In this document: one piece after another, positions 9,130-62,356 of the stretch
Numbering within the stretch: the stretch's first letter is position 1
Layout: each line of letters begins with the position of its first letter
Translations under genes and position numbers: made by a program
Notes under the pieces: model-generated
What the model saw: the letters and a program-made list of their open reading frames with translations, nothing else
Databases searched by the model: none
Told to the model about the DNA's origin: nothing
Source: Betaproteobacteria bacterium
GTDB lineage: Bacteria; Pseudomonadota; Gammaproteobacteria; Burkholderiales; UBA3065
Assembly: GCA_027490755.1 (NCBI GenBank)
Contig: JAIXXL010000021.1
Coordinates: forward strand, 25,675 to 89,674
Length of the DNA stretch: 64,000 nt
Direction of reading: 5' to 3'

Positions 9130-9206
9130 TGGGGTGGCTGATGGGACTCGAACCCACGACAACCGGAATCACAATCCGGGACTCTACCAACTGAGCTACA
9201 GCCACC
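9130..9206 (-). tRNA. tRNA-His (GTG)
   Basis: The reverse complement folds as a cloverleaf: 5' 'ggtggctg' (with G-1), anticodon arm 'ccgga ttGTGat tccgg', T-arm 'gtgggttcgagtcccat', encoded CCA. Confidence 0.92.
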
Positions 9207-9247
9207 ACTGGACCAACGATCTACAACTGGCACTGCACGGAAGAGAC

Positions 9248-9324
9248 TGGCCTGCCCGACAGGAGTCGAACCTGTAACCCCCGGCTTAGAAGGCCGGTGC
9301 TCTATCCGGTTGAGCTACGGGCAG
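9248..9324 (-). tRNA. tRNA-Arg (TCT)
   Basis: The reverse complement shows D-arm 'tagctcaaccggatagagc', anticodon arm 'ccggc ctTCTaa gccgg', T-arm 'caggttcgactcctg', CCA. Confidence 0.9.
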
Positions 9325-9347
9325 TCTGCGTAACCTGCTTCGGCGCC

Positions 9348-9424
<77 letters not shown>

Positions 9425-32529: not shown

Positions 32530-32605
32530 GGCTAGGTAGCTCAGTTGGTAGAGCATGCGATTGAAAATCGCAGTGTCGGCAGTTCGATTCTGCCCCTGGC
32601 CACCA
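32530..32605 (+). tRNA. tRNA-Phe (GAA)
   Basis: 'ggctaggtagctcagttggtagagcatgcgattGAAaatcgcagtgtcggcagttcgattctgcccctggccacca'. The acceptor, anticodon and T stems all pair. Confidence 0.92.
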
Positions 32606-51246: not shown

Positions 51247-52161
51247 GTGGTCGGCAAAGGCACTGGGGCGGGAGACGTCTCTTCCGGGCGTGAGGGGGCG
51301 GTTGTCGTGATCGGGGTGATGACCGGTGCCGCGGTCTGGGGCTTGGTCTGGTATCCCTACCGCGCGCTTGAGGCCGCCGGGTTCTCTTCTACCGCATCGA
51401 CGGCGCTGACCTACGCCATCAGTCTGGCCGTTGGCGTCGCGTTGTTCGGCACCCGGCTCGGCGAGCTGCGACGGCACTGGCGCGCGGTGCTGCTGATCGC
51501 GGTCATCGCCGGCTGGACCAATCTTTCCTATGTGCTCGGCATGGTCGGCGGCGAGGTCATGCGCGTGCTGCTGTTGTTCTACCTGGCGCCGCTGTGGACC
51601 GTGATTCTTGCGCGCATCGTGCTCGGCGAGCGGCTGACGCTGCAGTCCGGTGTACTGGTCGCGCTGTCGCTGGCGGGCGCCCTGATCATGCTCTGGCCGG
51701 AGCAGGGCCTGCCCCTGCCGGCCAATGCGGCCGAATGGTTCGGCGTGACCGGCGGCATGAGCTTCGCCAGCATGAACGTGCTGTCGAAGGGCGCAGACCA
51801 GGTGAGCATCGAGACCAAGTCGGTGGCGACCTGGGCAGGCGTCCTCATCGTGTCCGCCATCTGGCTGGCGGTGGGCGGGGGGGCGTGGGCGGTGCCGGCG
51901 GCCGGCTGGGCGGAGTGGCTGATCCTCGTCCTGCTTGGTGTGGCGATGTTTGCCAGCACGGTGATCATTCAACACGGCATCCAGCGGGTCCCGGCCAATA
52001 CCGCGATCGTTCTGTTCCTGATCGAGCTGGTGGCGGGTGCGGTGTCCGCGGCGTTGTTGTCGGACGAGATGCTGCGGCCACAGGACTGGCTGGGTGGGTC
52101 GCTGATCATCGGCGCGAGTCTGGTGGCTGCGGCGAGAAAGGTAGGGGGCAGACGAGATTGA
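51247..52161 (+). CDS. EamA/DMT-family transporter
   Basis: About 10 TM helices with two EamA-like halves. GTG 51247 was chosen so that TM1 ('AVVVIGVMTGAAVWGLVW') is retained. Start uncertain (track ORF begins at 51130). Confidence 0.7.
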   Translation: MVGKGTGAGDVSSGREGAVVVIGVMTGAAVWGLVWYPYRALEAAGFSSTASTALTYAISLAVGVALFGTRLGELRRHWRAVLLIAVIAGWTNLSYVLGMVGGEVMRVLLLFYLAPLWTVILARIVLGERLTLQSGVLVALSLAGALIMLWPEQGLPLPANAAEWFGVTGGMSFASMNVLSKGADQVSIETKSVATWAGVLIVSAIWLAVGGGAWAVPAAGWAEWLILVLLGVAMFASTVIIQHGIQRVPANTAIVLFLIELVAGAVSAALLSDEMLRPQDWLGGSLIIGASLVAAARKVGGRRD

Positions 52162-52241
52162 GTGGACATGAAGCGCAGGTGTCGCTCAGCCGGTATCTGA
52201 CCGGGCCCAGCCTTTTTGGCGCGTGCTCCGGGGCACTGGTC

Positions 52242-54836
52242 ATGATGCGTCTTTCGCCTCAGTTGATTGCCTGGCTGGGTGGTGTAGCCAAGCGCGTTGA
52301 TCTGGCGATTTGGCGAAAGACCCTAGAGCTCGTGCTCGGGCGAGCGCCTGAACCGGCGCGTCACGGGCCCGGCACTGCGCAGACTCTCCGCTGGATCGAC
52401 CACCTGCTCGCGCTCAATGATGCCCTGCGTCTTTACTACTGCATCGCACAGGAGCCAGCGCGCGTCCACGAGTTGTCCTCGACTCGCTTGGTCACTTTTG
52501 TGCCTTGTGATGATTCACAGTTGGGCTTGCGCGCCACTGCCGTATCGGTCGCCATGCTTCTCGACATGCTTGGGCCGCGCCTGGGCAATACCCGCTTCGG
52601 ATCGTTCCAACCACTGGATCACGGCTTGTCTGAACGTTTGCGTGAACGGGTCCGCGCCTGGCGCGAATGGGCCGAGGCCAACGCGCTGAACGTCAACGCC
52701 CGCTGGATCGCGCGCGAGGCTGTTGCGCGGGGCATCCCGTATCACCGTGAACCTGGATCCAAGCTGCTCGTTCGGCTCGGGCATGGTGCGAGCCAGCGGC
52801 GACTCAACGGCCCGTACGTGGACCGGGTGAGCAGCGTTGCCACGCATTGGTCAAATGACAAATGGCAGACCAGCAACCTCTTCGCCGCGCACGGCCTGCC
52901 GACGGCCGGGACCCGGTTGGTCGCCAGTTTCGAGCAGGCTCTGGCCCAGGCTAAGCGGTTCGGCTGGCCGGTCGTCGTCAAGCCGCGTTCTACTGACAAG
53001 GGCGTCGGCATCACCATCAACATCACCGACGAACCCGGCCTGCGGCAAGCTTTTGAGCATGCCACCAGATTTCGCGGGGGTGTCCTCGTGGAGCGCCATG
53101 TATCCGGATATGACCATCGCCTGCTGGTGGTCGGTGGCCGCTTTGTCGCCGCTGCTCTCCGACTGCCCGCACGCGTCGAGGGCGATGGCCAAAGGACCAT
53201 CGCGGAACTTGTCCATGCCCTGAATCTGGCCCGGTTTACGGGTCGGTTGCCAGGCGCCTACCGCTCTGAGGTGCCTGTGGTCCTGGACCATGAAGCGCTG
53301 CGGGTCCTCATAGCCCAGGGGTATGCGCCGGGTGACGTTCCAGCGGCAGGCGCCACGGTCACCCTTCGTGGGAACGCGAATCTTTCGACAGGCGGGAGTG
53401 CCGAGGACGTTACCGAGCAGGTTCACGTCGACAACCGCGCGCTGGCGGAGCAAGCGGCACGCCTCATAGGGCTGTGCACGGCAGGGCTCGACCTGCAGAC
53501 GAGCGATATCAGCCGGTCTTGGCGCGAGGTCGGCGGCGCTATCCTCGAGATCAACGCCGGCCCGGGTCTGCCGGTGCACCACTCGAGAACGTCCCGCTAC
53601 ACGGTACGAAAGGCCATCGTCGACGATCTGTTCCCGGCAGGGGCGACCGGTCGGATCCCCACCGCAGGTGTGACTGGCAGCATCGGCAAGACCACAACCT
53701 GCCGCATGCTTTCGAGCATCCTGAAGCATGCCGGGCACACGGTAGCGCTCACGGGCACCCAAGGCGCCTTCCTCGACGAGCGGCAGTTGCGAAAGGGCGA
53801 TCTGGCGGGGGGGCGGGCGGCACTGTCTCTGCTGCAAGACCCTGCGGCCACCGCCTGCGTCGCTGAGCTGGCGCGTGGGGGCCTCATCCGTAGCGGCTTG
53901 GGGTTGGACGTCCTCGATGTCGGTTCGGTGCTGAATGTGTACGACAACCATGTCGGGCTCGACGGCATCGAGACCCGCGAGCAGATGGCCCGCGTCAAGC
54001 AGTTGGTCGTCAGGCATGCCCGGCAGCTGGCGGTCCTGAACGCGGATGACCCGCTATGTCTGGCGATGAGCGATGGTATGGACCCGACCAGGGTGTGTCT
54101 GGTCAGCGAGGCGATGAGTCCGCGACTGACGGCGCACCTTGAGGCGGGTGGCATGGTCGCGACGATGCGCGACGCGGAACGAGGCCCGCTGCTCAGTTTG
54201 CAACGGGGCGCCGACATTCTGGGGGAGATGCCCGTCGCAGACATCCCGGCGACGTGGGGTGCCAGATTCCGCCCGGCGATGCTCAACGCACTGTTCGCTG
54301 CGGCTCTGGCTCACGGGCTCCGCGTACCGTTTCGGCATATCGAGACCGGCCTGGCGGCCTTTACGTCCGATTACGCCAGCAACCCGGGGCGGACGAACCG
54401 CATCTCGGGTCTGCCGTTCGATCTGTGGGTCGCGTGGTGCGATGGCCCCGAGGCGTGCACCGAGATGTCGCGCTTGATGTCCCGAATCGGGGGCGATGTG
54501 ATAGGGCATCTGGTGATCTATGCGGTTGGCAATCGCCCTGACGCCTTCACCCGCGCCTCAGCAGACGCTGTCGCCGGCGCTTTCGATCGCTACTACTGCA
54601 CCGACATGGAAGAAGACCGTCGCGGACGGGCGTTCGGCGAGGTCGCTGGGCTGCTGGCCGACAGCCTTCGGAAGGCAGGGGTCGCCGACTCCGCGATCGT
54701 CGTCGAGCCCTCCAGCAGTGCCGCCGTAAAAAGGGCCTTGGCCGAGATGCCAGCGGGGGGCATGTTGGTCATCCAGACCTACCATCCCGACACAGTCATG
54801 GCCTCGGTGCGTGCCATGTGGCCCGACGCCGCCTAG
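52242..54836 (+). CDS. Cyanophycin synthetase-like protein (N-terminal region + ATP-grasp + Mur-ligase-like domain)
   Basis: ATG-ATG at 52242 (in-frame GTG alternative at 52179). ATP-grasp blocks 'GWPVVVKPRSTDKGVGI', 'VLVERHVSGYDHRLLVVGGRFVAAALR' and 'AILEINAGPGLPVH'. Mur-ligase P-loop 'GVTGSIGKTTTCRML' and 'VAELARGGLIRSGLGLD...NVYDNHVG', as in CphA. The upstream part of the 1080-aa track ORF overlaps the EamA gene in another frame. Confidence 0.8.
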   Translation: MMRLSPQLIAWLGGVAKRVDLAIWRKTLELVLGRAPEPARHGPGTAQTLRWIDHLLALNDALRLYYCIAQEPARVHELSSTRLVTFVPCDDSQLGLRATAVSVAMLLDMLGPRLGNTRFGSFQPLDHGLSERLRERVRAWREWAEANALNVNARWIAREAVARGIPYHREPGSKLLVRLGHGASQRRLNGPYVDRVSSVATHWSNDKWQTSNLFAAHGLPTAGTRLVASFEQALAQAKRFGWPVVVKPRSTDKGVGITINITDEPGLRQAFEHATRFRGGVLVERHVSGYDHRLLVVGGRFVAAALRLPARVEGDGQRTIAELVHALNLARFTGRLPGAYRSEVPVVLDHEALRVLIAQGYAPGDVPAAGATVTLRGNANLSTGGSAEDVTEQVHVDNRALAEQAARLIGLCTAGLDLQTSDISRSWREVGGAILEINAGPGLPVHHSRTSRYTVRKAIVDDLFPAGATGRIPTAGVTGSIGKTTTCRMLSSILKHAGHTVALTGTQGAFLDERQLRKGDLAGGRAALSLLQDPAATACVAELARGGLIRSGLGLDVLDVGSVLNVYDNHVGLDGIETREQMARVKQLVVRHARQLAVLNADDPLCLAMSDGMDPTRVCLVSEAMSPRLTAHLEAGGMVATMRDAERGPLLSLQRGADILGEMPVADIPATWGARFRPAMLNALFAAALAHGLRVPFRHIETGLAAFTSDYASNPGRTNRISGLPFDLWVAWCDGPEACTEMSRLMSRIGGDVIGHLVIYAVGNRPDAFTRASADAVAGAFDRYYCTDMEEDRRGRAFGEVAGLLADSLRKAGVADSAIVVEPSSSAAVKRALAEMPAGGMLVIQTYHPDTVMASVRAMWPDAA

Positions 54837-54846
54837 CGCCTTCCCG

Positions 54847-56646
54847 TCAGCGTGCGTTCGCCGTGTCGGCGGCGTTGGCCTCGAGCATCGGCTCCAGCAG
54901 TTCCTTGAGGCGGCGGATGACGTTGGTATCCAGGTCAGCTTTGTTGCGCTGCCGCCCCGAGTGATCCTCCACCGTCGTGAAGCGGTCGACAGGGCTGCCG
55001 GTGCGCAGTAGTTCTTCGTTACTCACCACCAAGACGATGCGGTCGACGTCCGGGTCCAGCAGAAGGGCGGTGCAGCGTGCGTAAAGCCCTCGCGCTGTCA
55101 GGACCAACTCGGTTCGGTCGGGCCCGACCGTCCGGTCGTGGTCGGTGATGTAACAGCGCTCGTTGCTCGCGGCCGCCTCCGCGCGGATTTTCTCGGCGCG
55201 CTTCCAGGCCGACCCACCGCCAAGGATTGCATGGACAGGGATGCGGCCAGCGTGCGGAAGTACCGTCTCGAACATCTTGCGCAACAACGCTCGCGTACGC
55301 GGACCGCCGGACACGAAAGGTGCCGAGTTCACCTCGATGATGACGGCAGAGTTCTCGTGCCAAGGTATGGATGCGTCATCCGTCATAAGGTCCACACCGG
55401 CGATGTCCAGCCCCATCTGCCGCGCGGCCCGCACGCAGATCGCCGCGTTATCCGGGTGCAGATGGTCCGTTACGTTCCCAGATTCACCACCCCACTCTGT
55501 GGATTCTCGCGGGCGCAGGTAGACCCATCGTCCCTCAGTCGGCACAGACTCTACGGTGAGTCCCTGGCGGGAGAGTTCGGCCTCGGCGACCTTGTCGATC
55601 TGCGGCACATTCGATCGCTCCCACAATGGCTTGAGGCTCGCCTGGTGGTTTGCCAGCGTGATGAGCTCTTGTACCGTCGATGTCCCATCGCCCTGAATAC
55701 GTCTCGGAAAGCGCGTCACAGCAAACAGCACGCTGCCGAATCCCACCAGTACACGGTGGCAGATTCCGGGCGCCTGAGCTTCGACGAGGACCCGGCGCGA
55801 CAGTCTGTTTGCAGCCTCGAAGGCGGCGGCGAGGGTCGTCTCGTCGCCGATGCCGGTGGTCACGCCCTCTCCCCGGTCACGGTCGTTGGGTTTCACAACC
55901 ACGGGCCATCCGATCGCACGCGCGGCCTCAGCAGCTTGCTGCTCATCCAGAACCAGATGGTTCAAAGGCACAGGGATCCCAACCTGGCGCAAGATCTGCG
56001 TGGTCAGGGATTTTCTTTGAGCTGCACTTGCACCCAGATGAGAATCGGTGGAGACGTTGCTGCGGTGCAAGCGCATGGCTCTCGCTCCCCAGCCCAGGCA
56101 GTAGCGCGATGCTCCGAGGTGCAGGAAGGGAATGTCAGCGTCGTACGCGGCCCACAAAAGGCCGATCGAAGACTTGCCGCCTTCGCTCATGGTGCTTCGG
56201 ACCGGTTCGATGAACCCATCATGGATGCTCTTCTGCAGGCTCTCGTGGTCTCGTTCCGCAGCCGCGGGTTCAAGCCCCGCTTGCAGGATCCGTATGGCCA
56301 ACTTGTAGGCACTGTTGCGCTGCGCGGGCGGAAGAGGGTCGACGACCGGGACGCGGGCCACCACTTCGAACATGTCGTTCTCACCGGGCACGATCCGAAC
56401 GACAAGCCCGGCCTCGAAGACCGGTGCCCGGGCGGCCCGAAGGAGATGCGCGGCGAGCGCCAGCAGCCGATCGACGAGCAGCGCCGGGGTCGGGCTGGCG
56501 CCGGCCGACTCACCGGGCGGGAGACCAGTCCAACGCTCGAGCACTTGATCGAGTCTGGCTATCTCGCATGTGGTCTGGAGCGTGGCCTTGTCGACCCGGA
56601 GCGTGATGGTTCGCGTCCTTTGGCGGAGGCCGGGTAGGTAGCTCAT
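54847..56646 (-). CDS. CphA2-like ATP-grasp protein (CphA-type N/ATP-grasp regions, vestigial Mur-ligase region without P-loop)
   Basis: 599 aa. 'GKSSIGLLWAAYDADIPFLHLG...CLGWGARAMRL', 'GWPVVVKPNDRDRGEGV', 'VLVEAQAPGICHRVLV' and 'AVIIEVNSAPFV' are paralogous to 52242-54836. At the position of the P-loop it reads 'ILGGGSAWKRA'. Confidence 0.75.
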   Translation of the reverse strand: MSYLPGLRQRTRTITLRVDKATLQTTCEIARLDQVLERWTGLPPGESAGASPTPALLVDRLLALAAHLLRAARAPVFEAGLVVRIVPGENDMFEVVARVPVVDPLPPAQRNSAYKLAIRILQAGLEPAAAERDHESLQKSIHDGFIEPVRSTMSEGGKSSIGLLWAAYDADIPFLHLGASRYCLGWGARAMRLHRSNVSTDSHLGASAAQRKSLTTQILRQVGIPVPLNHLVLDEQQAAEAARAIGWPVVVKPNDRDRGEGVTTGIGDETTLAAAFEAANRLSRRVLVEAQAPGICHRVLVGFGSVLFAVTRFPRRIQGDGTSTVQELITLANHQASLKPLWERSNVPQIDKVAEAELSRQGLTVESVPTEGRWVYLRPRESTEWGGESGNVTDHLHPDNAAICVRAARQMGLDIAGVDLMTDDASIPWHENSAVIIEVNSAPFVSGGPRTRALLRKMFETVLPHAGRIPVHAILGGGSAWKRAEKIRAEAAASNERCYITDHDRTVGPDRTELVLTARGLYARCTALLLDPDVDRIVLVVSNEELLRTGSPVDRFTTVEDHSGRQRNKADLDTNVIRRLKELLEPMLEANAADTANAR

Positions 56647-56782
56647 CGAGATCTTCGCGCGGGTTCGATATAGATACGCCGCAGGATACTTGCTCGCGAC
56701 GCGGCTTTCGAGTTAGCCTGCGGATGCGATGGGGGTCTCGCCCCGCAAAGTAGTTTTTCGCCAACTCTTGAGGGAACCACAG

Positions 56783-56881
56783 ATGCAAAATCAAGCTCCG
56801 CTCGCCCCGTATGGCGCGCTTCGTTTCACTCCGATCTCTACCAAAGTCGGTGGTGGCAAGGGTCTCGACAAGCCCGCCTGA
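56783..56881 (+). CDS. Unannotated 32-codon ORF (candidate precursor/primer peptide)
   Basis: 'gaggga'-N7-ATG. Translation 'MQNQAPLAPYGALRFTPISTKVGGGKGLDKPA'. It ends 20 nt before the HExxH ORF and is too short for the ORF track. Only positional evidence supports it. Confidence 0.3.
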   Translation: MQNQAPLAPYGALRFTPISTKVGGGKGLDKPA

Positions 56882-56901: not shown

Positions 56902-58014
56902 TTGCCATTGCTCGAACCTTGCTTTGCTGAAGGTGCTTCGCTTGACGCGGACATAAACGCCGCGCTTCGTGAAGGGGTGGCATGGTGTGCGCAACAAGCC
57001 GGGCTTGACCCGGCTTGTTGTTTTGATGGCGGGCCGATGCCGTCTGCGTGGTGCGGCAGCCCGGTCGATTTCGCTGCCTATTACGATTGGGCCATAGCCT
57101 TGACGTCGGCCGTCGACGATCCGCCGGCTCCCTGGGAGCCGGCTTCTTCTTCCGGTTCTGATGCAGCGGCGCGGCGTTGGCGTCCCTTTCTGCAACATTT
57201 CTCCGCCGCGTTCGCCTCGTCGGCCCGACCCGCGACCGATCACGCGACCCGTAACGTGTTGGCCGCGCCCGCCGTCGTCACCTTGGGCGAGCCTTGGTTC
57301 GACGCCGCAGCGAGCGAGCGCATCGTCCGCTGGTTGGACCTTGAGCCTGACAACGCCATGGCGCTGGTCGGCCTCAGCGCCGCTGAACTCCACGAGGCTC
57401 GCAGCGATGTCGAGCGCGCATTGGCTGCGTTGGCGGCCTGGGCACCCGGTTTCCACGGCGAGTTCGTCGCGGTGGTGCGGCGGTTGATCGTCGTCAAGCC
57501 GTCTGGCTCGCAGCGGATGACCTTCCGTGCCGCATCTTCGTTTGCGCTGTGGGGCGCTCTGGCCGGCAACCAGCAGGTGCACCCGCGCTGGTGGGACTGG
57601 GTGCCCACCTTGGTCCATGAGACGGCGCACTCGATCCTGTTCGCCCTGTCGCGACACGCCCCACTGGTCGAGAACGACCCAGCGGAGCGTTACGCCTCGC
57701 CCTTGCGCGATGATCCTCGGCCGATCGACGGCATCTACCACGCAGCATTTGTCTCGGCGCGCGAGGCGGTGGCTTTGGGCGAGTGTCTGCAGGCGATCGA
57801 TGCTGGCGTGGCACTTCCCGGAGTGGGTGATGATGAAGTCAGCGCTGTGCGCGCCGACTTTGCCGCGGTGCGGGAGAACTCGGTGCGGTCTTTTCATGAC
57901 TGCGTCGCCGTGCTCGAGCGGCATGCGCGGTTGAGCCCGTCTGGTCGCGACATACTTGATACGCTGCGACGGGAGCTTGAGGCGTTGGTCGGTGCGGCGG
58001 TCCACGCTGCTTAG
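56902..58014 (+). CDS. HExxH-motif domain protein (peptide beta-hydroxylase-like family)
   Basis: 370 aa, TTG start. The central 'PTLVHETAHSILF' HExxH motif sits in a helix-rich protein with no signal peptide, so it resembles the HEXXH-motif domain family rather than a classical zincin protease. Confidence 0.65.
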   Translation: MPLLEPCFAEGASLDADINAALREGVAWCAQQAGLDPACCFDGGPMPSAWCGSPVDFAAYYDWAIALTSAVDDPPAPWEPASSSGSDAAARRWRPFLQHFSAAFASSARPATDHATRNVLAAPAVVTLGEPWFDAAASERIVRWLDLEPDNAMALVGLSAAELHEARSDVERALAALAAWAPGFHGEFVAVVRRLIVVKPSGSQRMTFRAASSFALWGALAGNQQVHPRWWDWVPTLVHETAHSILFALSRHAPLVENDPAERYASPLRDDPRPIDGIYHAAFVSAREAVALGECLQAIDAGVALPGVGDDEVSAVRADFAAVRENSVRSFHDCVAVLERHARLSPSGRDILDTLRRELEALVGAAVHAA

Positions 58015-58087
58015 CTTCGCCAGCCAGCCCCGAGGCTGATCAAGCCCGTGCGGGTTGACTTGCCGCGGCAGCCCTAGCCCGCCAACC

Positions 58088-58999
58088 ATGAACATCCTGC
58101 TCACCGGGGCATCGGGGTATTTCGGCAGCGCGCTTTTGGCCGAACTCTTGCCGGCCCACCGCGCGAACCTGCACCGGGTGACCGTGCTAGTTCGCGGGGA
58201 CCAGGCAGCGCAGTCGGGTCGGTCAGACGTCCCCACGCTGCGCGAGATGGACTTGCACGCGTCGACGCTCCGCTCGCGAGGCATCGATACCGTCATCCAT
58301 CTTGCTGCAGCGCGCTCGTCCACAGATATCCCAGCGCAGAACCGCTCCCTGGAGTTGAGCCGCAGACTGCTCGAAGCCTCAGCGGGTGCAGATGTGAGGC
58401 GCCTCGTCCTCGCGTCCAGTCACGCCGTGTACGGGACACAGCCAACGCCGTGGGACGAGGATGTGACTGTTCCCGCGCCCGTGACCTTGTACGGCTTGGC
58501 AAAACGCGCAACCGAGTTGATGCTCGATGCCAGTCCGGTGTCGACGGTCTCGGCCCGTCTGGCCAAGCTGGTCGGGCCGTCGCCGAGGTTCCGCGTTCAG
58601 CCAAGCGAACTCCCCCACGTCCTCTTGTCGTACGCCCTCAAGGGAAAGCTGGTTGTGATGCGCAACCCTAAACAGCGTTTCGATTTCCTCGACGTGCGCG
58701 ATGCAGTGCAGGGGGTCATCGCGATCGCCAACCACTCTGGGGAGGGGTTGCCAGGTGCGATCAACTTGGGTTCAGGTGGCGTGGTGATGAGTGCGGAGGT
58801 TGCCGCAATGGTCGATGACGTGTTCCGACCAATGGGTTTTCCCCTGCGTTATCAATTCGAGACCGAGAGTACGCCAGCACCGAGGGACTTCGGGATGTCC
58901 ATCAAACTTGCCCACCGTTGCTTGGGGTGGAGCCCGGAAATCGCCCTGCGGATGACGCTTGAAGGTATTGCAGGGCAATGGGCAATACGTGCCCTCTAA
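58088..58999 (+). CDS. NAD-dependent epimerase/dehydratase (extended SDR)
   Basis: ATG 58088: 'MNILLTGASGYFGSAL' (Rossmann GxxGxxG) and catalytic 'YGLAK' (YxxxK). Confidence 0.8.
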   Translation: MNILLTGASGYFGSALLAELLPAHRANLHRVTVLVRGDQAAQSGRSDVPTLREMDLHASTLRSRGIDTVIHLAAARSSTDIPAQNRSLELSRRLLEASAGADVRRLVLASSHAVYGTQPTPWDEDVTVPAPVTLYGLAKRATELMLDASPVSTVSARLAKLVGPSPRFRVQPSELPHVLLSYALKGKLVVMRNPKQRFDFLDVRDAVQGVIAIANHSGEGLPGAINLGSGGVVMSAEVAAMVDDVFRPMGFPLRYQFETESTPAPRDFGMSIKLAHRCLGWSPEIALRMTLEGIAGQWAIRAL

Positions 59000-59038: not shown

Positions 59039-62000
59039 TCAATGAACCCAAGTGCGCAACAGTTCGTGCAGCCCGGTCAGCCTGCTCCGGGTAAGCAGCG
59101 AGGCTTTGTCGGAGTACGCATGCACCTGCTCATCGACGAACTCGACCCGATCGATCTGTCCCAGGGGCATCCCTCTGGCGAGGAACTCGTCGGTCTGCAC
59201 CACGACCACCAGCGCCCCGACATCCTTTCTTAGAACCAAGGCTCGGGTTCGCTCATATAAGACCCTTCCCGACGCCATTGCATGCGTTCGGCCTGACGGT
59301 GCAATTGTACGTTCTGCGCTGCTCAAGAACGCCGCGAGCCCTTTTCTGCAGAGTTCTTGCCATCGTGTCTCCGCCGCGCTCCACGCCGCGTCCCCACCCA
59401 CAAAAGCCTCCACAGGTATCCGGCCTTTGTTCACCAGCAGTCGGTCGAGATACTCGGGCAGGTAGCGGCGCGAGATCTCTCCGCCACCCAGCAAGGGCGC
59501 GTAGTTCACCTCATTGATGACCGCACCGTTCTCGTACCATGGCCGGGTGATGTCGGGGCTGATGATGTCCACGCCAGCGACCTCCAGGCTCATGAGCGCG
59601 GTGGCATCGAGCGCGATCCTCAGGTTGTCCGGATGAAGGTCGTGCGTAACTTCCTCGTCGACGCCGCCCCATGCCGAGGTCTCGATGCGTCGCAGACGCA
59701 CAAAGCGCCCCTTGCCGGGGACCGACTCGGCTAGCCAGCCGTCGCGCTTTAGGGTCTGCACGGCAAGTTCGTCCAGGGCGATCGGGTTGCACTGCCACGG
59801 CGGGATGAGCGACTGTCGCGCCCGTTCTCGCTCGACCAGCTCCCGTACTGTCGATTCGCCGTCCCCGTAGACGCCGATTGGGAGTCTGCGCACGGCATAC
59901 AGCAGCCGACCCGCGGTGATGAACAGCCGATGGCAAACCCCCTCGACCTGCTGCTCGACCAGTACCTGCTTGCCTCGTGATAGCTTGAGCGCTGCCGCGA
60001 ACGCAGCGTCGAGTGTCTCTGCATTGACATCGACGCTGACGCCTTCGCCACGCTCGCGGTCGGCCGGTTTCACGACCACCGGGTAACCCAGCCGGTCGGC
60101 GATCTGCTGCGCTTGTTCGCGTGCGCGCGCAACCCCGTGCCGCGGCGCTGGCAGACCTGCTTCGCGCAACAACTGCGCGGTCACGCGCTTGTTCTCTGTC
60201 AGCGCCATGCCGAAGACCGAATCCCGGTCGGTCGTGCTCCGGTCGATCCTCCGTGCCCGTTCACCCCAGCCCAATTGGTAGATGCCGCCGCTGATCGGTC
60301 GGAACGGTACGCCAGTCTCCCGCGCGACACGGAGCACCTCGAACGTGGATTTCCCGGCAGATACAGCTTGGGCGTGGCGCTTTACCAAGCTTTCATAGAT
60401 CTTTGCAAAGAACCCTTCGCGGAGCGAGGCATCTGCAGGGTCGGCGTTGTTCGCCCATTTGGCGACGGCGGATGCCTGCTTGAGAACATCCTGCAACACG
60501 CTATTTGGCGCCGCCTCGGTACCATTCAGACGGATAGTGGCTTGCCAACGCCCAGCGCGTGCGGTGTCAGGCTGACAGGTGAGGACCATCGGCTCATCAA
60601 ACATCGGCACTCGGACCGCATGCAGCAGGGCCAAGGCAAACCGCAAGACGCCGTGCAGCCAGAATCGGGCCCGCTCCTCTGTCCCCGAGGGAACCGTCTG
60701 GGGTTCCTCTGCGCGACCCGCATGGCCCGCGAGCAGTGTCAGCCAAGCCTGGAGTCTTAAGGCGTCTGGCTGGGCAGGGGGCTCGAAAGCCACATTCAGC
60801 GTTCCATTGGTGGCGACATGCGGCGCAGATGCCATTGGGGTCTTGCCACTCGTGGCCCCGGTCAAGTACTTGTGGAGCAGGGCCTGCACCGCATCGTGCT
60901 GGATCTTCCCTTGCTCGTTGCGGGGTATGCGATCAACCACCACTGCAGCGTGCAGCGCATGTGCCCCCAATCGTTCTTTCACATGCTCGACCAGGTGCGG
61001 CGGAGCGGCATCCATGGCGCGCCTGAGTTCGACAAGTGCCACAGGGACGTCCTGTAGAACAGAGTGCCGTATTGGCATGACGTGCGCGTCAGCGACAGCG
61101 GGGTGTGTCCGTAGGCACTCCTCCACCTCGGCGGGGTAGAGGTTGACGCCGCTGATGATCATCATGCCGTCGGCTCGACCGCGGTGGACGAGTTGCCCGC
61201 CAGGGGTCAACAAGCCTATATCGCCCGTCGCAAACCAGCCCTTCTTGAAAACGCGGCGGTTGTGTTCTCCCTCACCCACATAGCCGCAGATCGCAGCCGG
61301 GGAGTGGATCTCGATGAGGCCTTCTTGTCCATCAGGTAAGCGCTTGCCGTGCGCATCGACGACCCGCAAGCGGAAACCCGGGAGGGGGCTGCCCACGCCA
61401 CCGGGAAGCGTAAAAACATCCTCTGGCCTGGTTATCGTCGATGTGTGTGTCTCGTTGGTGCCGTAGAACAGGAACAGGTTGGGTGTCAGGCGGTCACGGA
61501 TCCTCTGGCGCAGGCCCATCGATACTGTTGAGCCTCCGATCATCAGGGCGTGCAGTCCAGCCAAGGGGCCCTTTCGCTCATTTTCAGGCTTCCTCAGCAT
61601 CAGCTCGGCGTGGAAGGCCGTGCCGTAGACAGCAGAGACTTGGCCAGACGTGACGAGAGACTCGAAATCGAACGCACCTGGTTTGCCAAGAAACACGCTG
61701 GCGCCTATGGCAAAGGCCTCGAGGCAACGTTGTTTGGCGGCATAGAAATGCATGCTCACCAAGCTGAGCAATGAGTCTTCGGGCCCGTATGGGAGCCACT
61801 TTGGCCCCAGGTTTGCGCGGGTGAGCTGTTGTCGATGGGTCACCGGTATGACCTTCGGCACGCCTGTGGACCCAGACCCGGTCACGTAGAGCCACGGTTG
61901 GTCGGCCACGTCTTCAGCGGCCGGTGGGACAGAGTCAGGGTCACCCGAGAGGGTCCCGAAGTCGATCGTGGGTAGGCCGTATGCCTTTGATTGAGGGGTG

Positions 62001-62356
62001 GCGTCGCCAGTCAGGATCGTGGCGGCGCTCGTGAGTGACAGCTGGCGTCGTGCATGTTCTTCGGGAGTCGAACTTGCGAGGCTCAGCGAGGTTGCACCAA
62101 TGTGCGCGAGTGCGAGCATTGCGACCAGATGGTCCAAAGGATCGTCCAGCGCTATGGCTACGGTACTACCCGTAACAATCCCGTATGCAAGCAGTCCGGA
62201 AGCGGTGGCGGCGACCCGCTGTTGCAATTCCACATAGGTGAGACGTTGGTCCGAGGTGGCGACAGCCGCCACGCCGGGATGCTGAATTGCCTCCCGGGAG
62301 AGGAGGCTTACGATGTTCTGTGACACTAGGGGGCTCTGCGGTGGTCGGCTAGGCAA
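59039..62356 (-). CDS. Fusion protein: ANL-superfamily adenylate-forming domain + CphA-like N/ATP-grasp module
   Basis: N-terminal approx. 500 aa: 'YVTGSGSTGVPKVIPVTH', 'FYGTNE', 'GWFATGDIG', 'GRADGMMIISGVNLYPAEVEE' and 'PRNEQGKIQ' (AMP-binding core motifs). C-terminal approx. 580 aa: 'GKSTFEVLRVARETGVPF...QLGWGERARRI', 'GYPVVVKPADRERGEGV', 'VLVEQQVEGVCHRLFI', 'AVINEVNYAPLL', then a P-loop-less region 'FVGGDAAWSAA'. An alternative GTG start at 62326 overlaps the GT stop (tagtg). Confidence 0.8.
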   Translation of the reverse strand: MPSRPPQSPLVSQNIVSLLSREAIQHPGVAAVATSDQRLTYVELQQRVAATASGLLAYGIVTGSTVAIALDDPLDHLVAMLALAHIGATSLSLASSTPEEHARRQLSLTSAATILTGDATPQSKAYGLPTIDFGTLSGDPDSVPPAAEDVADQPWLYVTGSGSTGVPKVIPVTHRQQLTRANLGPKWLPYGPEDSLLSLVSMHFYAAKQRCLEAFAIGASVFLGKPGAFDFESLVTSGQVSAVYGTAFHAELMLRKPENERKGPLAGLHALMIGGSTVSMGLRQRIRDRLTPNLFLFYGTNETHTSTITRPEDVFTLPGGVGSPLPGFRLRVVDAHGKRLPDGQEGLIEIHSPAAICGYVGEGEHNRRVFKKGWFATGDIGLLTPGGQLVHRGRADGMMIISGVNLYPAEVEECLRTHPAVADAHVMPIRHSVLQDVPVALVELRRAMDAAPPHLVEHVKERLGAHALHAAVVVDRIPRNEQGKIQHDAVQALLHKYLTGATSGKTPMASAPHVATNGTLNVAFEPPAQPDALRLQAWLTLLAGHAGRAEEPQTVPSGTEERARFWLHGVLRFALALLHAVRVPMFDEPMVLTCQPDTARAGRWQATIRLNGTEAAPNSVLQDVLKQASAVAKWANNADPADASLREGFFAKIYESLVKRHAQAVSAGKSTFEVLRVARETGVPFRPISGGIYQLGWGERARRIDRSTTDRDSVFGMALTENKRVTAQLLREAGLPAPRHGVARAREQAQQIADRLGYPVVVKPADRERGEGVSVDVNAETLDAAFAAALKLSRGKQVLVEQQVEGVCHRLFITAGRLLYAVRRLPIGVYGDGESTVRELVERERARQSLIPPWQCNPIALDELAVQTLKRDGWLAESVPGKGRFVRLRRIETSAWGGVDEEVTHDLHPDNLRIALDATALMSLEVAGVDIISPDITRPWYENGAVINEVNYAPLLGGGEISRRYLPEYLDRLLVNKGRIPVEAFVGGDAAWSAAETRWQELCRKGLAAFLSSAERTIAPSGRTHAMASGRVLYERTRALVLRKDVGALVVVVQTDEFLARGMPLGQIDRVEFVDEQVHAYSDKASLLTRSRLTGLHELLRTWVH

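What the first reader, a model, noticed from the sequence alone, without database searches (positions are those of the whole stretch)
56783..56881. Unannotated 32-codon ORF immediately upstream of the HExxH protein: candidate ribosomal precursor or primer peptide
The 255-bp divergent spacer between the CphA2-like gene and the HExxH gene contains ATG 56783, preceded by 'gaggga'. The ORF encodes MQNQAPLAPYGALRFTPISTKVGGGKGLDKPA and stops 20 nt before the HExxH ORF. HExxH-motif hydroxylase-like proteins are reported to act on short ribosomal peptides, and cyanophycin synthetases need a peptide primer with a free C-terminal carboxylate. A genetically encoded short peptide, Gly/Lys-rich at its C-terminus and carrying a single Asp, is therefore a plausible substrate or primer for the surrounding enzymes. 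Two caveats apply: its third-position G/C bias is weaker than that of neighbouring genes, and short ORFs arise by chance.
Basis: inference. Interest (0 to 1): 0.7.

Follow-up and report, generated by a model that had tools for sequence, protein, structure and literature searches.

The report
Real precursor-peptide gene beside HExxH oxygenase
The 32-codon reading frame is a real, strongly conserved small gene: it is the single-repeat member of a widespread, undescribed family of repeat peptides (L-A-P-Y-G, nine residues, K-V-G) encoded directly in front of a peptide-modifying iron oxygenase and usually next to ligases related to cyanophycin synthetase, so it most likely marks an uncharacterised class of modified peptides.

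Summary
The ORF is at 56783-56881 as described: GAGGGA lies 7 nt upstream, and the stop lies 20 nt before TTG 56902 of the HExxH gene. An ORF of this size is not significant on its own (29% of shuffles).

Conservation is decisive. Four related loci keep it in the same place. The first 23 codons are nearly identical in protein, with 16 of 19 DNA differences at third positions (dN/dS about 0.02). The upstream DNA and the C-terminal tail diverge.

Among 84 HExxH-centred loci, the motif PYG-x9-[K/T][V/I]G occurs only beside the HExxH gene. It is often present as 2-4 tandem repeats within one small ORF. A more distant branch has an "LDxSKLLGFK" leader plus GAK[I/V]GxK repeats.

Only two protein families recur with the peptide: the alpha-KG-HExxH oxygenase and a roughly 600-aa ligase with cyanophycin synthetase 2 architecture. 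That ligase lacks the residues that recognise cyanophycin and free aspartate.

Best reading: a RiPP-type substrate peptide of the HExxH enzyme that is then probably modified by the ligases. The chemistry is unresolved. The "precursor" reading is supported. The "C-terminal cyanophycin primer" reading is not: the C-terminus and the Asp are not conserved, and the motif is internal and repeated. No Pfam or NCBIfam model or paper describes the family.

The parts
56770..56775 (+). Shine-Dalgarno-like GAGGGA, 7 nt before the start codon of the peptide gene
   Evidence: The equivalent positions in L002 (GGAG) and L004 (AAGGAG) also carry a Shine-Dalgarno sequence although the surrounding DNA is unrelated.
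56783..56881 (+). Precursor-peptide gene, 32 codons plus stop: MQNQAPLAPYGALRFTPISTKVGGGKGLDKPA
   Evidence: Orthologues sit at the same place in L001, L002/L003 and L004. An identical protein, P0071, is in public collections. A peptide-first search found 10 further small proteins with 1-3 repeats of the motif.
56783..56851 (+). Conserved part, codons 1-23, holding the family motif LAPYG (56801-56815), nine residues, then TKVG (56840-56851)
   Evidence: dN/dS is about 0.02 with synonymous sites saturated. Differences fall 16/19, 13/15 and 9/10 at third codon positions, and the other five frames are not conserved. Invariant residues in 28 repeat units are L7, P9, Y10, G11 and G23; K21 is conserved in at least 90%.
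56852..56878 (+). Variable Gly/Lys/Pro-rich tail, codons 24-32. It keeps a Lys 2-4 residues after the VG but is otherwise unconserved, including the Asp and the C-terminal residue.
56902..58014 (+). alpha-ketoglutarate/Fe(II) HExxH-type peptide oxygenase, 370 aa, TTG start 20 nt after the peptide stop (probably translationally coupled). The HExxH motif is at 57616-57630.
   Evidence: TIGR04267 scores 89 bits against a cut-off of 40. ChlH structure 8S5F matches by sequence (E 2e-7) and by fold (TM 0.65-0.70, probability 1.0). The AF2 model has pLDDT 92.5 including residues 1-45. The N-terminus is conserved in homologues. H239, E240, H243, H280, R269, R273 and R287 are invariant.
54847..56646 (-). 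Divergently transcribed ATP-grasp ligase, 599 aa, with cyanophycin synthetase 2-like architecture (N domain, G domain, truncated M domain) but not cyanophycin-specific
   Evidence: AF2 gives pLDDT 91.8, and Foldseek aligns the full length to CphA1 and CphA2 (7TA5, TM 0.68/0.70). Catalytic K252, R298, R312, D419 and E438 are kept. The equivalents of TeCphA1 E215, H267, N394 and R458 are replaced family-wide. The gene is adjacent to the peptide and HExxH genes in about 30 loci.
59039..62356 (-). Fusion of an AMP-binding (adenylating) domain with a second ATP-grasp ligase of the same family, 1105 aa. Probable further tailoring enzyme.
   Evidence: L001 has the ligase part alone at 70% identity. 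The same fusion sits next to the peptide and HExxH genes in L151, and P0107 is another example.
52158..54836 (+). Cyanophycin synthetase 1-like protein (ATP-grasp plus Mur-ligase domain). The start is uncertain (TTG 52158, GTG 52179 or ATG 52242). Accessory: absent from L001 and L002.
   Evidence: It scores 575-580 bits against cut-offs of 850-877. It lacks the E215, H267 and R458 equivalents. A 958-aa gene occupies the same position next to the P0164 peptide.
58055..58999 (+). NAD-dependent epimerase/dehydratase family protein, downstream of the HExxH gene on the same strand. Accessory: not present in L001 or L002.
   Evidence: PF01370, E 3.7e-32; gene contexts.

Best explanation
The ORF encodes a ribosomally made substrate (precursor) peptide of a small biosynthetic cassette.

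Shown:
- It is a real gene under strong purifying selection at the protein level.
- It belongs to a family of peptides built from one or several copies of the unit [L/I]-L-A-P-Y-G, nine residues, then [S/A]-[T/A]-K-V-G, with a further Lys 2-4 residues later.
- Family members sit immediately in front of an alpha-KG/Fe(II) HExxH oxygenase, usually 3-20 nt from its start. In most cases a roughly 600-aa ATP-grasp ligase with cyanophycin synthetase 2 architecture is adjacent.

Inferred:
- The peptide is translated from ATG 56783, and translation of the HExxH gene is coupled to it.
- The HExxH enzyme binds the LAPYG segment, which corresponds to the 'LLGF' leader of the more distant branch. It then oxidises a residue of the unit. 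Candidates with precedent for this enzyme class are Pro9 and Tyr10. The conserved K21-V-G is the other candidate, either for side-chain hydroxylation or for oxidative backbone cleavage of the PflC type.
- The ligases (599 aa; the 1105-aa fusion; the CphA1-like protein) then use ATP to make amide bonds on the modified peptide. The ligases keep the residue that holds the activated carboxylate but have lost the arginine that binds the alpha-carboxylate of a free incoming amino acid. The peptide's conserved functional groups are amines, not carboxylates. The most economical guess is therefore that a conserved Lys side chain is the nucleophile and that amino acids or short chains are grafted onto it.
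- No protease or exporter is conserved with the cassette, so release and export, if any, use unlinked functions.
For: Conservation of the ORF:
- It has the same position, frame, start and Shine-Dalgarno sequence in L001, L002/L003 and L004, while the upstream DNA is unrelated.
- dN/dS is about 0.02, and 16/19, 13/15 and 9/10 differences fall at third codon positions.

Specificity of the motif:
- PYG-x9-[K/T][V/I]G occurs in 29 translated segments from 25 sources (24 HExxH-centred loci plus the window). Every one is on the HExxH strand next to that gene, and none elsewhere in about 1.2 Mb x 6 frames.
- It has zero occurrences in 306 kb of unrelated metagenome DNA.
- Tandem repeats occur within one ORF: 4 in L009 and L011; 2 in L010, L013, L014, L016 and L022; 3 in P0159 and P0160.
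- 51 of 84 loci have a leader plus K[V/I]G small ORF beside the HExxH gene.

Peptide-first retrieval from 1.84 billion proteins gave 10 true family members. Their neighbours are an HExxH gene (L156, E 8e-41), an ATP-grasp plus a 958-aa gene (P0164), or a gene with a Mur-ligase P-loop (L154/L155).

Only two protein families recur with the peptide: the HExxH oxygenase and the ligase.

The HExxH protein is a member of the peptide-hydroxylase family by sequence and fold. Characterised members all act on ribosomal precursor peptides (PMC12636437, PMC12707348, PMC13060819).

Ligase: CphA2-like fold, catalytic residues kept, cyanophycin and aspartate determinants lost.

No RNA alternative: there is no Rfam match and the folding z-score is -0.81.
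Against: - There is no expression, Ribo-seq or mass-spectrometry data. The modification, its site and the order of steps are all inferred.
- The ligase family is not exclusive to this system. Two of three ligase-first look-ups (L149, L152) have neither the HExxH gene nor the peptide.
- Many loci have the peptide and HExxH genes without a ligase. The ligase may therefore use another substrate or act only in some lineages.
- All characterised relatives of the ligase (CphA1 G domain, CphA2, GshF) extend a C-terminal alpha-carboxylate, which fits a primer or scaffold role better than a Lys-acceptor role.
- The Lys is replaced by Thr in L022.
- Third-position G+C of the ORF is lower than in its neighbours.
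- The homology between the PYG-type and LLGF-type peptides rests on short motifs and on the homology of the enzymes.
Confidence: 0.7

Rival explanations
1. Genetically encoded primer. The peptide supplies a free C-terminal carboxylate that the cyanophycin-synthetase-like ligases extend into a poly-amino-acid chain.
For: - The closest solved relatives of the ligases activate the C-terminal backbone carboxylate of a primer (PMC9427784, PMC9262961).
- The carboxylate-binding Arg (R298) is conserved.
- The window holds three such G domains and one Mur-ligase-type domain.
- The CphA2-like N domain, which anchors the polymer in CphA enzymes, is retained at the fold level.
Against: - The C-terminal residue and tail are the least conserved part, even among close relatives.
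- The constrained motif is internal and is repeated 2-4 times per polypeptide in many species, which a single C-terminus does not explain.
- The peptide and HExxH genes occur without any ligase in many genomes.
- The residues that recognise the Arg-decorated primer (E215) and the incoming Asp (R458, N394), and the P-loop His, are replaced in all three domains.
- It could be rescued only if the precursor is first cut after each unit to create new C-termini.
Confidence: 0.12
2. Scaffold or carrier peptide, with logic of the pearlin or LysW type. An amino acid is ligated to the peptide, tailored while tethered (hydroxylation, epimerase, methyltransferase and so on), and then released as a small molecule. 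The peptide itself would not be the product.
For: - Accessory genes typical of small-molecule tailoring vary between otherwise orthologous clusters: the epimerase/dehydratase and AMP-binding domain in the window; a methyltransferase and a TIM-barrel enzyme in L002.
- No protease or peptide exporter is conserved.
- An EamA-type metabolite exporter flanks the cluster in the window, L001 and L002.
- ATP-grasp ligases of this lineage attach amino acids.
Against: - The HExxH and peptide pair exists without any ligase, so the oxygenase must act on the peptide itself there.
- There is no conserved acidic residue or conserved C-terminus to serve as the tether.
- Multi-repeat precursors are typical of peptides that are themselves the product.
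- No release enzyme is linked.
Confidence: 0.08
3. The ORF is translated but is not a substrate. It would be either a small accessory subunit of the HExxH enzyme or an upstream ORF whose translation merely delivers ribosomes to the weakly initiated TTG start of the HExxH gene.
For: - The stop-to-start distance is 3-20 nt in all loci, and no clear Shine-Dalgarno sequence precedes the HExxH start.
Against: - A coupling uORF needs no conserved amino-acid sequence, yet the sequence is under dN/dS of about 0.02 and the motif is duplicated in tandem.
- In L005 the three peptide genes lie downstream of the HExxH gene.
- Every characterised enzyme of this family modifies an adjacent small peptide (PMC12636437, PMC12707348, PMC13060819).
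Confidence: 0.05
4. Chance ORF in a divergent promoter region; not a gene.
For: - An ORF of this size arises in 29% of shuffles.
- Third-position G+C is lower than in the neighbouring genes.
Against: - Frame, start and protein sequence are conserved across loci whose flanking DNA is unrelated, with third-position-only substitution.
- The family is found independently by a peptide-first search.
Confidence: 0.01

Closest known systems
RiPP pathways with alpha-KG-HExxH oxygenases: ChlBH/ChlH (PDB 8S5F), BpmH/BipH of the biphenomycins, PflC/PosC, and the nitrilobacillin enzyme
   Same: The enzyme family and fold are the same. A short precursor gene lies next to the enzyme. Known reactions are beta-hydroxylation of Asp/His, ortho-Tyr, Gln and Pro, and for PflC/PosC oxidative backbone cleavage to a C-terminal amide (PMC12636437, PMC12707348, PMC13060819).
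   Different: The precursor family is different: LAPYG...TKVG units, often in tandem, with no NHLP-type leader and no Cys or aromatic cross-link motif. The partner enzymes differ too: cyanophycin-synthetase-like ligases instead of radical SAM, MNIO or asparagine-synthetase-like enzymes. The identity to ChlH is only about 16%. The residue modified here is unknown.
Cyanophycin synthetase 2 (CphA2; PDB 7TA5, 8FXH) and the G domain of CphA1
   Same: The 599-aa ligase aligns over its whole length with CphA2 and with the N and G domains of CphA1. The G domain is roughly 35-40% identical by inspection of the printed alignments. ATP, Mg2+ and acyl-phosphate residues are conserved.
   Different: It scores far below the NCBIfam cut-offs (251 against 877 bits). 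The family forms a separate score group (258-511 bits for the more distant ~600-aa members; true CphA1 at 190 bits or less). It has no PF18921 N-domain hit. The residues for the primer's Arg side chain, the P-loop His and the incoming Asp are replaced. It is linked to a ribosomal peptide and an oxygenase, not to cyanophycinase.
Graspetides/microviridins, including multi-core precursors (PMC5934393, PMC8939145; titles and abstracts seen)
   Same: A ribosomal peptide, sometimes with several repeated cores in one precursor, is encoded next to ATP-grasp ligase(s).
   Different: Graspetide ligases are of the MdnB/MdnC/PsnB type; PsnB is only a weak fold match here (TM 0.24, against about 0.7 for CphA). 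Graspetide cores need conserved Asp/Glu with Thr/Ser/Lys for side-chain macrocycles, and no acidic residue is conserved here.
ATP-grasp peptide ligases that use a ribosomal peptide as a building block (pheganomycin PGM1), and carrier or scaffold systems (LysW/LysX; pearlins). These are cited from my own knowledge, not tested against sequences here.
   Same: The logic is shared: an ATP-dependent ligase joins an amino-acid-type unit to a small ribosomally made peptide.
   Different: LysW has a conserved acidic C-terminal tail, and pearlins use LanB-like aminoacyl-tRNA-dependent ligases. Neither feature is present. LysX and ArgX are only distant fold matches.

Membership tests
Precursor peptide of an alpha-KG-HExxH RiPP pathway | The adjacent enzyme is a member of the alpha-KG-HExxH peptide hydroxylase family (TIGR04267/IPR026337). 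| tested here: met
   89.2 bits against a cut-off of 40. PDB 8S5F matches at E 2e-7. Foldseek gives TM 0.65-0.70 and probability 1.0 over the full length. HExxH plus a downstream His and Arg residues are invariant in 46 sequences.
Precursor peptide of an alpha-KG-HExxH RiPP pathway | A short ORF that is co-oriented with and adjacent to the enzyme gene, conserved as a protein across homologous clusters. | tested here: met
Precursor peptide of an alpha-KG-HExxH RiPP pathway | The peptide is actually modified by the enzyme (hydroxylation or cleavage). | not testable with these tools
   This needs co-expression or in-vitro assays with mass spectrometry.
Cyanophycin synthetase (CphA1/CphA2), for the 599-aa ligase and its two paralogues | Domain architecture: N domain, ATP-grasp G domain, and a full (CphA1) or truncated (CphA2) Mur-ligase M domain. 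| tested here: met
   The AF2 model (pLDDT 91.8) aligns over 615-637 columns with CphA1 and CphA2. The 52158-54836 protein has a Mur_ligase_M domain.
Cyanophycin synthetase (CphA1/CphA2), for the 599-aa ligase and its two paralogues | Score above the curated family cut-offs (TIGR02068, NF010623). | tested here: not met
   Scores are 222-251 bits (599-aa ligase), 200-218 bits (fusion protein) and 575-580 bits (CphA1-like protein), against cut-offs of 850-877.
Cyanophycin synthetase (CphA1/CphA2), for the 599-aa ligase and its two paralogues | Substrate-determining residues of the G domain: E215 (Arg side chain of the primer), H267 (P-loop), N394 and R458 (incoming Asp). Numbering is TeCphA1 (PMC9427784). 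| tested here: not met
   In the 599-aa ligase they become S207, R258, S382 and hydrophobic or absent, and the replacements hold across 41 family members. E215, H267 and R458 are also replaced in the fusion and in the CphA1-like protein.
Graspetide (omega-ester/amide peptide) precursor | Conserved Asp/Glu together with Thr/Ser/Lys in the core for side-chain macrocyclisation, and an MdnB/MdnC-type ATP-grasp ligase. | tested here: not met
   No acidic residue is conserved in 28 repeat units. The ligase is of CphA type, and PsnB is only a weak fold match.
LysW-type amino-group carrier protein | A protein of about 54 aa with a zinc-finger core and a conserved acidic C-terminal tail ending in Glu, used by a LysX-type ligase. 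| tested here: not met
   The peptide has no Cys or His, and its C-terminus is variable and non-acidic. There is no Pfam or NCBIfam hit.
Any described peptide family (Pfam-A, NCBIfam) | A match to a curated model. | tested here: not met
   There are no matches above noise for single-repeat, multi-repeat and LLGF-type peptides. Literature searches for the motifs and for the enzyme combination found nothing.

The most novel reading that the evidence does not exclude
The cassette defines a new class of ribosomal natural product. Polymerase-type ligases recruited from the cyanophycin synthetase lineage (ATP-grasp G domains; in the window also a Mur-type M domain and an adenylating domain) graft amino acids or short branched chains onto conserved lysines of a hydroxylated ribosomal repeat peptide. 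The result would be a ribosomally templated, cyanophycin-like branched polyamide. The wider 'LLGF leader + GAK[I/V]GxK repeat' peptides found across at least five phyla would be its relatives.
Probability: 0.3. Interest if true: 0.85.

Novelty: new variant of a known kind. Interest (0 to 1): 0.68.

Why it matters
- It turns three genes that pipelines name 'hypothetical' or 'cyanophycin synthetase' into a testable three-part system: peptide, oxygenase and ligase.
- It identifies the substrate gene, which is what is needed to reconstitute such a pathway in E. coli.
- It shows that a whole clade of HExxH oxygenases, in Alpha-, Beta- and Gammaproteobacteria, Verrucomicrobia, Acidobacteria, Planctomycetes and Myxococcota, comes with a previously undescribed family of Lys/Gly-rich repeat peptides.
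- It suggests that cyanophycin-synthetase-like enzymes have a second life as peptide-tailoring ligases.
- It warns that 'cyanophycin synthetase' annotations of the roughly 600-aa proteins are probably wrong, because the substrate-recognition residues are missing.

Tried and rejected
1. The longer 50-codon version starting at ATG 56729 was rejected. The extension is not conserved.

2. An HExxH start upstream that reads through the ORF was rejected. There is no start codon in that frame before 56902. A downstream start, as in the truncated gene calls P0001 and P0002 (ATG 57037 in the window), was also rejected, because residues 1-45 are conserved and fold at pLDDT 90-96.

3. A conserved RNA element or an antisense gene as the cause of the conservation was rejected.
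   - There is no Rfam hit.
   - The folding z-score is -0.81.
   - Substitutions follow the codon phase of the sense frame only.

4. No sigma-70 consensus promoter was found in the spacer. This is uninformative for a 66% G+C genome.

5. My metagenome DNA-pattern scan was mistyped: 30 N instead of 28, so the two halves of the motif were out of frame. Its 62 loci (L085-L146) are chance matches and contain no true motif.

6. The correct pattern run on viral contigs gave two chance matches inside long ORFs.

8. A look-up of the window's own HExxH protein and of P0071 found no contig. The source organism was not identified. The flanking dapD, dapE-like and aminotransferase genes and the nearest relatives suggest Burkholderiales.

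9. A search for a conserved protease or exporter found none. The third most frequent neighbour family was an ABC-F ATPase at varying distances, judged to be housekeeping.

10. Neighbours in ligase-less loci were unrelated to each other.

11. P0161 (2374 aa) and P0167 (193 aa of 'FNPLAPYGAR' repeats without TKVG) from the peptide search were rejected as false positives.
Full report
**1. The observation.**
- Window 56783-56881 (+) reads ATG...TGA and translates to MQNQAPLAPYGALRFTPISTKVGGGKGLDKPA.
- GAGGGA lies at 56770-56775, 7 nt before the ATG.
- The spacer between the divergent 599-aa ATP-grasp gene (54847-56646, -) and the first possible start of the HExxH gene (TTG 56902) is 255 bp. The ORF ends 20 nt before that TTG.
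- Third-position G+C of the ORF is 0.58. Genes of the cluster have 0.71-0.75, and the flanking core genes have 0.85-0.93.
- On its own the ORF means little: 29% of shuffles of the spacer contain a complete ATG ORF of at least 32 codons on this strand.
- The reading frame is open back to ATG 56729 (50 codons).

**2. Conservation in close relatives.** Homologues of the HExxH protein at 92%, 76% and 65% identity were traced to their contigs L001, L002/L003 and L004.
- All carry the ORF in the same place:

| Locus | Peptide |
|---|---|
| L001 | MQNQAPLAPYGALRFTPISTKVGGKDPGKPA |
| L002 | MQNQAPLAPYGALRFAPIATKVGTPPKPSQR |
| L004 | MQNQAPLAPYGALRFAPIATKVGEIGKGSKQP |

- JGI called the L001 copy as a 31-aa gene.
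- In L002 and L004 the DNA upstream of the ATG is unrelated to the window, yet each has its own Shine-Dalgarno sequence.
- Over the first 23 codons, window versus L002 shows 16 synonymous and 3 non-synonymous differences. Window versus L004 shows 13 and 2. Synonymous sites are saturated, and dN/dS is about 0.02.
- By codon position the differences are 3/0/16, 2/0/13 and 1/0/9. None of the other five frames gives a conserved translation.
- The 18 codons upstream of ATG 56783 are not conserved, so 56783 is the start.
- An identical 32-aa protein (P0071) is on record from NCBI and Logan. The gene has therefore been called by at least some pipelines.

**3. The HExxH gene does not overlap the ORF.**
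- No ATG, GTG or TTG precedes 56902 in its frame.
- Residues 1-45 of the 370-aa product align with the N-termini of full-length homologues. They are modelled at pLDDT 90-96 as a helix packed into the fold.
- In all close loci the enzyme's start lies 12-20 nt after the peptide's stop. In the alphaproteobacterial loci the two genes are 0-15 nt apart. This suggests translational coupling (inference).

**4. A family of repeat peptides.** One scan of species-representative genomes with the HExxH alignment gave 262 relatives, of which the best 80 loci were kept.
- A profile of the four peptides, searched against the six-frame translation of all loci, found significant matches directly beside the HExxH gene in many of them.
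- Several have the unit in tandem within one small ORF:
  - four copies in L009 and L011;
  - two in L010 (Sulfitobacter sp. JB4-11), L013, L014, L016 and L022;
  - three separate genes downstream of the enzyme in L005 (Candidatus Nitrotoga fabula).
- The pattern PYG-x9-[K/T][V/I]G occurs in 29 translated segments from 25 sources, meaning 24 loci plus the window. All are on the enzyme's strand and next to it, and none is elsewhere in the loci or the window.
- The pattern is absent from 306 kb of unrelated DNA.
- In an alignment of 28 units, L7, P9, Y10, G11 and G23 are invariant and K21 is at least 90% conserved. The PYG-to-K spacing is fixed at nine residues. A further Lys follows 2-4 residues after the VG.

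**5. Peptide-first retrieval.** A phmmer search with the 32-aa peptide against 1.84 billion representative proteins gave 12 hits. Ten are small proteins (32-119 aa) with one to three LAPYG...TKVG units. The neighbours that could be read were:
- an HExxH gene (L156, E 8e-41 against the family profile);
- a 593-aa ATP-grasp gene plus a 958-aa gene, in the same arrangement as the window (P0164);
- a gene with a Mur-ligase P-loop (L154/L155).

**6. A wider superfamily.**
- More distant HExxH loci carry small ORFs with a leader 'LDxSKLLGFK(L/I)' followed by repeats of GAK[I/V/L]GxK. Examples are L044, L050, L055, L071, L075, L081, L082 and L151.
- A crude pattern (leader plus K[V/I]G) finds such an ORF beside the enzyme in 51 of 84 loci. 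These span Proteobacteria, Verrucomicrobia, Acidobacteria, Planctomycetes and Myxococcota.
- The LAPYG segment plausibly corresponds to the LLGF leader motif, and TKVG to the AK[V/I]G core. This is inference from short motifs plus the homology of the enzymes.
- No Pfam or NCBIfam model matches any of these peptides.
- Full-text searches for the motifs, or for HExxH together with cyanophycin-type or ATP-grasp ligases, found nothing relevant.

**7. The partners.** Clustering all larger ORFs of 30 peptide-bearing loci leaves only two shared families: the HExxH enzyme and a roughly 600-aa ATP-grasp protein. No protease or transporter recurs.

*The HExxH protein.*
- It is a member of the alpha-KG-HExxH peptide hydroxylase family: TIGR04267 at 89 bits against a cut-off of 40, ChlH 8S5F at E 2e-7, and fold TM 0.65-0.70.
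- Characterised members hydroxylate Asp/His, ortho-Tyr, Gln or Pro in ribosomal precursors. PflC/PosC also cleave the backbone oxidatively (PMC12636437, PMC12707348, PMC13060819).

*The ligase.*
- Its model (pLDDT 91.8) aligns over its full length with CphA1 and with CphA2 7TA5. The 'CphA2-like' label therefore holds for the architecture.
- It is not a cyanophycin synthetase. It scores 222-251 bits against cut-offs of 850-877.
- It belongs to a separate score group without the PF18921 N-domain signature.
- Mapping the functional residues of TeCphA1 (PMC9427784) onto it gives the table below.

| TeCphA1 residue(s) | Role | In the 599-aa ligase family |
|---|---|---|
| K261, R309, R323, D431, E450 | ATP, Mg2+, acyl-phosphate | kept |
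| E215 | binds the Arg side chain of the primer | Ser here; Arg or Lys in most of the family |
| H267 | P-loop His | Arg |
| N394 | incoming Asp recognition | Ser or Thr |
| R458 | alpha-carboxylate of the incoming Asp | absent or hydrophobic in 39 of 41 members |

- These replacements are shown. The other two G domains of the window also lack E215, H267 and R458.

**8. Limits on the ligase link.**
- Many loci have the peptide and the HExxH gene only, with unrelated neighbours. The minimal module is therefore peptide plus oxygenase.
- Of three look-ups that started from ligase homologues, one (L151) has the peptide, the HExxH gene and an AMP-binding/ATP-grasp fusion like the window. Two (L149, L152) have the ligase in other contexts.
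- The ligase is therefore a frequent but not obligatory or exclusive partner.

**9. The locus.**
- The cluster (about 52.2-63.6 kb) has lower third-position G+C than the flanking genes. Those are dapD, an aminotransferase, an M20 peptidase and EamA.
- L001 and L002 share those flanks. Between EamA and ThiG they carry only the core (ligase, peptide, HExxH, a second ligase), plus different accessory genes.
- The window's version adds a CphA1-like protein, an epimerase/dehydratase and an adenylating domain fused to the second ligase. A GT4 glycosyltransferase follows.

**10. Interpretation.**
- Shown: the ORF is a real, selectively constrained peptide gene. It is the single-unit member of a repeat-peptide family tied to the HExxH oxygenase.
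- Inferred: it is the oxygenase's substrate. LAPYG serves recognition, and the modified residue is P9, Y10 or the K-V-G segment. The ligases then form amide bonds on the peptide, most economically on a conserved lysine, given the loss of the alpha-carboxylate-binding Arg and the absence of conserved carboxylates in the peptide.
- The C-terminal primer model and a scaffold-peptide model remain possible at lower probability.
- A chance ORF, an RNA element and an overlapping gene are excluded.

**11. Novelty.** The kind (a precursor peptide next to a known RiPP oxygenase) is known. The peptide family, its tandem-unit organisation and its pairing with cyanophycin-synthetase-like ligases are, as far as the libraries and the literature held here show, undescribed.

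Noticed in passing
L025-L029, L034, L037, L039-L041, L044, L048-L050, L054, L055, L060, L063, L065, L067, L070, L071, L074, L075, L077, L078, L080-L083, L151 (just upstream of the HExxH match in each): A large set of small ORFs has the leader 'LDxSKLLGFK' and repeated GAK[I/V/L]GxK motifs. They are encoded directly in front of HExxH oxygenases in at least five phyla. No Pfam or NCBIfam model covers them and no paper was found.
   Followed up: partly
window 52158-54836 (+), 54847-56646 (-), 59039-62356 (-): All three cyanophycin-synthetase-like G domains lack the TeCphA1 residues E215, H267 and R458 that bind the primer and the incoming aspartate. Public sources name relatives 'cyanophycin synthetase', which is probably a misnomer.
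   Followed up: yes
window 59039-62356 (-); L151 1058-4261; P0107: A fusion of an AMP-binding (adenylating) domain with the roughly 600-aa ATP-grasp ligase recurs in distant clusters that also hold the peptide and the HExxH gene. No carrier (thiolation) domain was seen.
   Followed up: partly
window ~52.2-63.6 kb versus 36-52 kb; L001, L002: The cluster has third-position G+C of 0.70-0.75, against 0.85-0.93 in the flanking dapD/aminotransferase/M20 peptidase/EamA genes. Related genomes share the flanks and the core but carry different accessory genes between EamA and ThiG. It therefore behaves as a variable island.
   Followed up: partly
L154 549-953 and L155 564-986: A three-repeat peptide (P0160) is followed not by an HExxH gene but by a gene whose product carries a Mur-ligase-type P-loop (GSVGKTT). 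The contigs are too short to see more.
   Followed up: partly
L005 9250-9990 (Candidatus Nitrotoga fabula): Three separate peptide genes lie downstream of the HExxH gene instead of one upstream. One has two units, and two have proline-rich tails (for example PPPPPSPSPSPPP).
   Followed up: no
L014, L012, L015-L018, L021, L022, L024, L030 (C-termini of the peptides): In sphingomonad and some Burkholderiales loci the peptides end in a conserved basic tail of the type RRVVRRNAR. This may be a follower-type recognition or export signal. It is absent from the window's subfamily.
   Followed up: no
L022 7387-7596: Here the otherwise conserved Lys of the K-V-G motif is Thr (ATVG) in both units, while a Lys four residues later is kept. 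This is relevant to which Lys, if any, is the modified residue.
   Followed up: no
L042 and L045, 6250-7233 (-) and 5944-6927 (-): In two acidobacterial loci that lack the ligase, a conserved 327-aa protein without any Pfam match is divergently encoded next to the peptide and HExxH genes. It could be an alternative partner enzyme.
   Followed up: no
window 56804-56817: The DNA encoding A-P-Y-G-A also reads A-P-Y-G-A on the opposite strand. A search with the motif core alone therefore cannot assign the strand; the rest of the unit and the start and stop codons do.
   Followed up: yes
window 9130-9424 (-) and 32530-32605 (+): A tRNA-His/Arg/Pro cluster lies in a low-G+C stretch (6-10 kb, G+C 0.55-0.57). 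A tRNA-Phe lies at the edge of another low-G+C stretch (32-34 kb, 0.57). These could be integration sites or islands.
   Followed up: no
P0167 (193 aa): A 'protein' made of regularly spaced FNPLAPYGAR repeats without the TKVG half. It is probably a translated DNA repeat array and a false positive of the peptide search.
   Followed up: no
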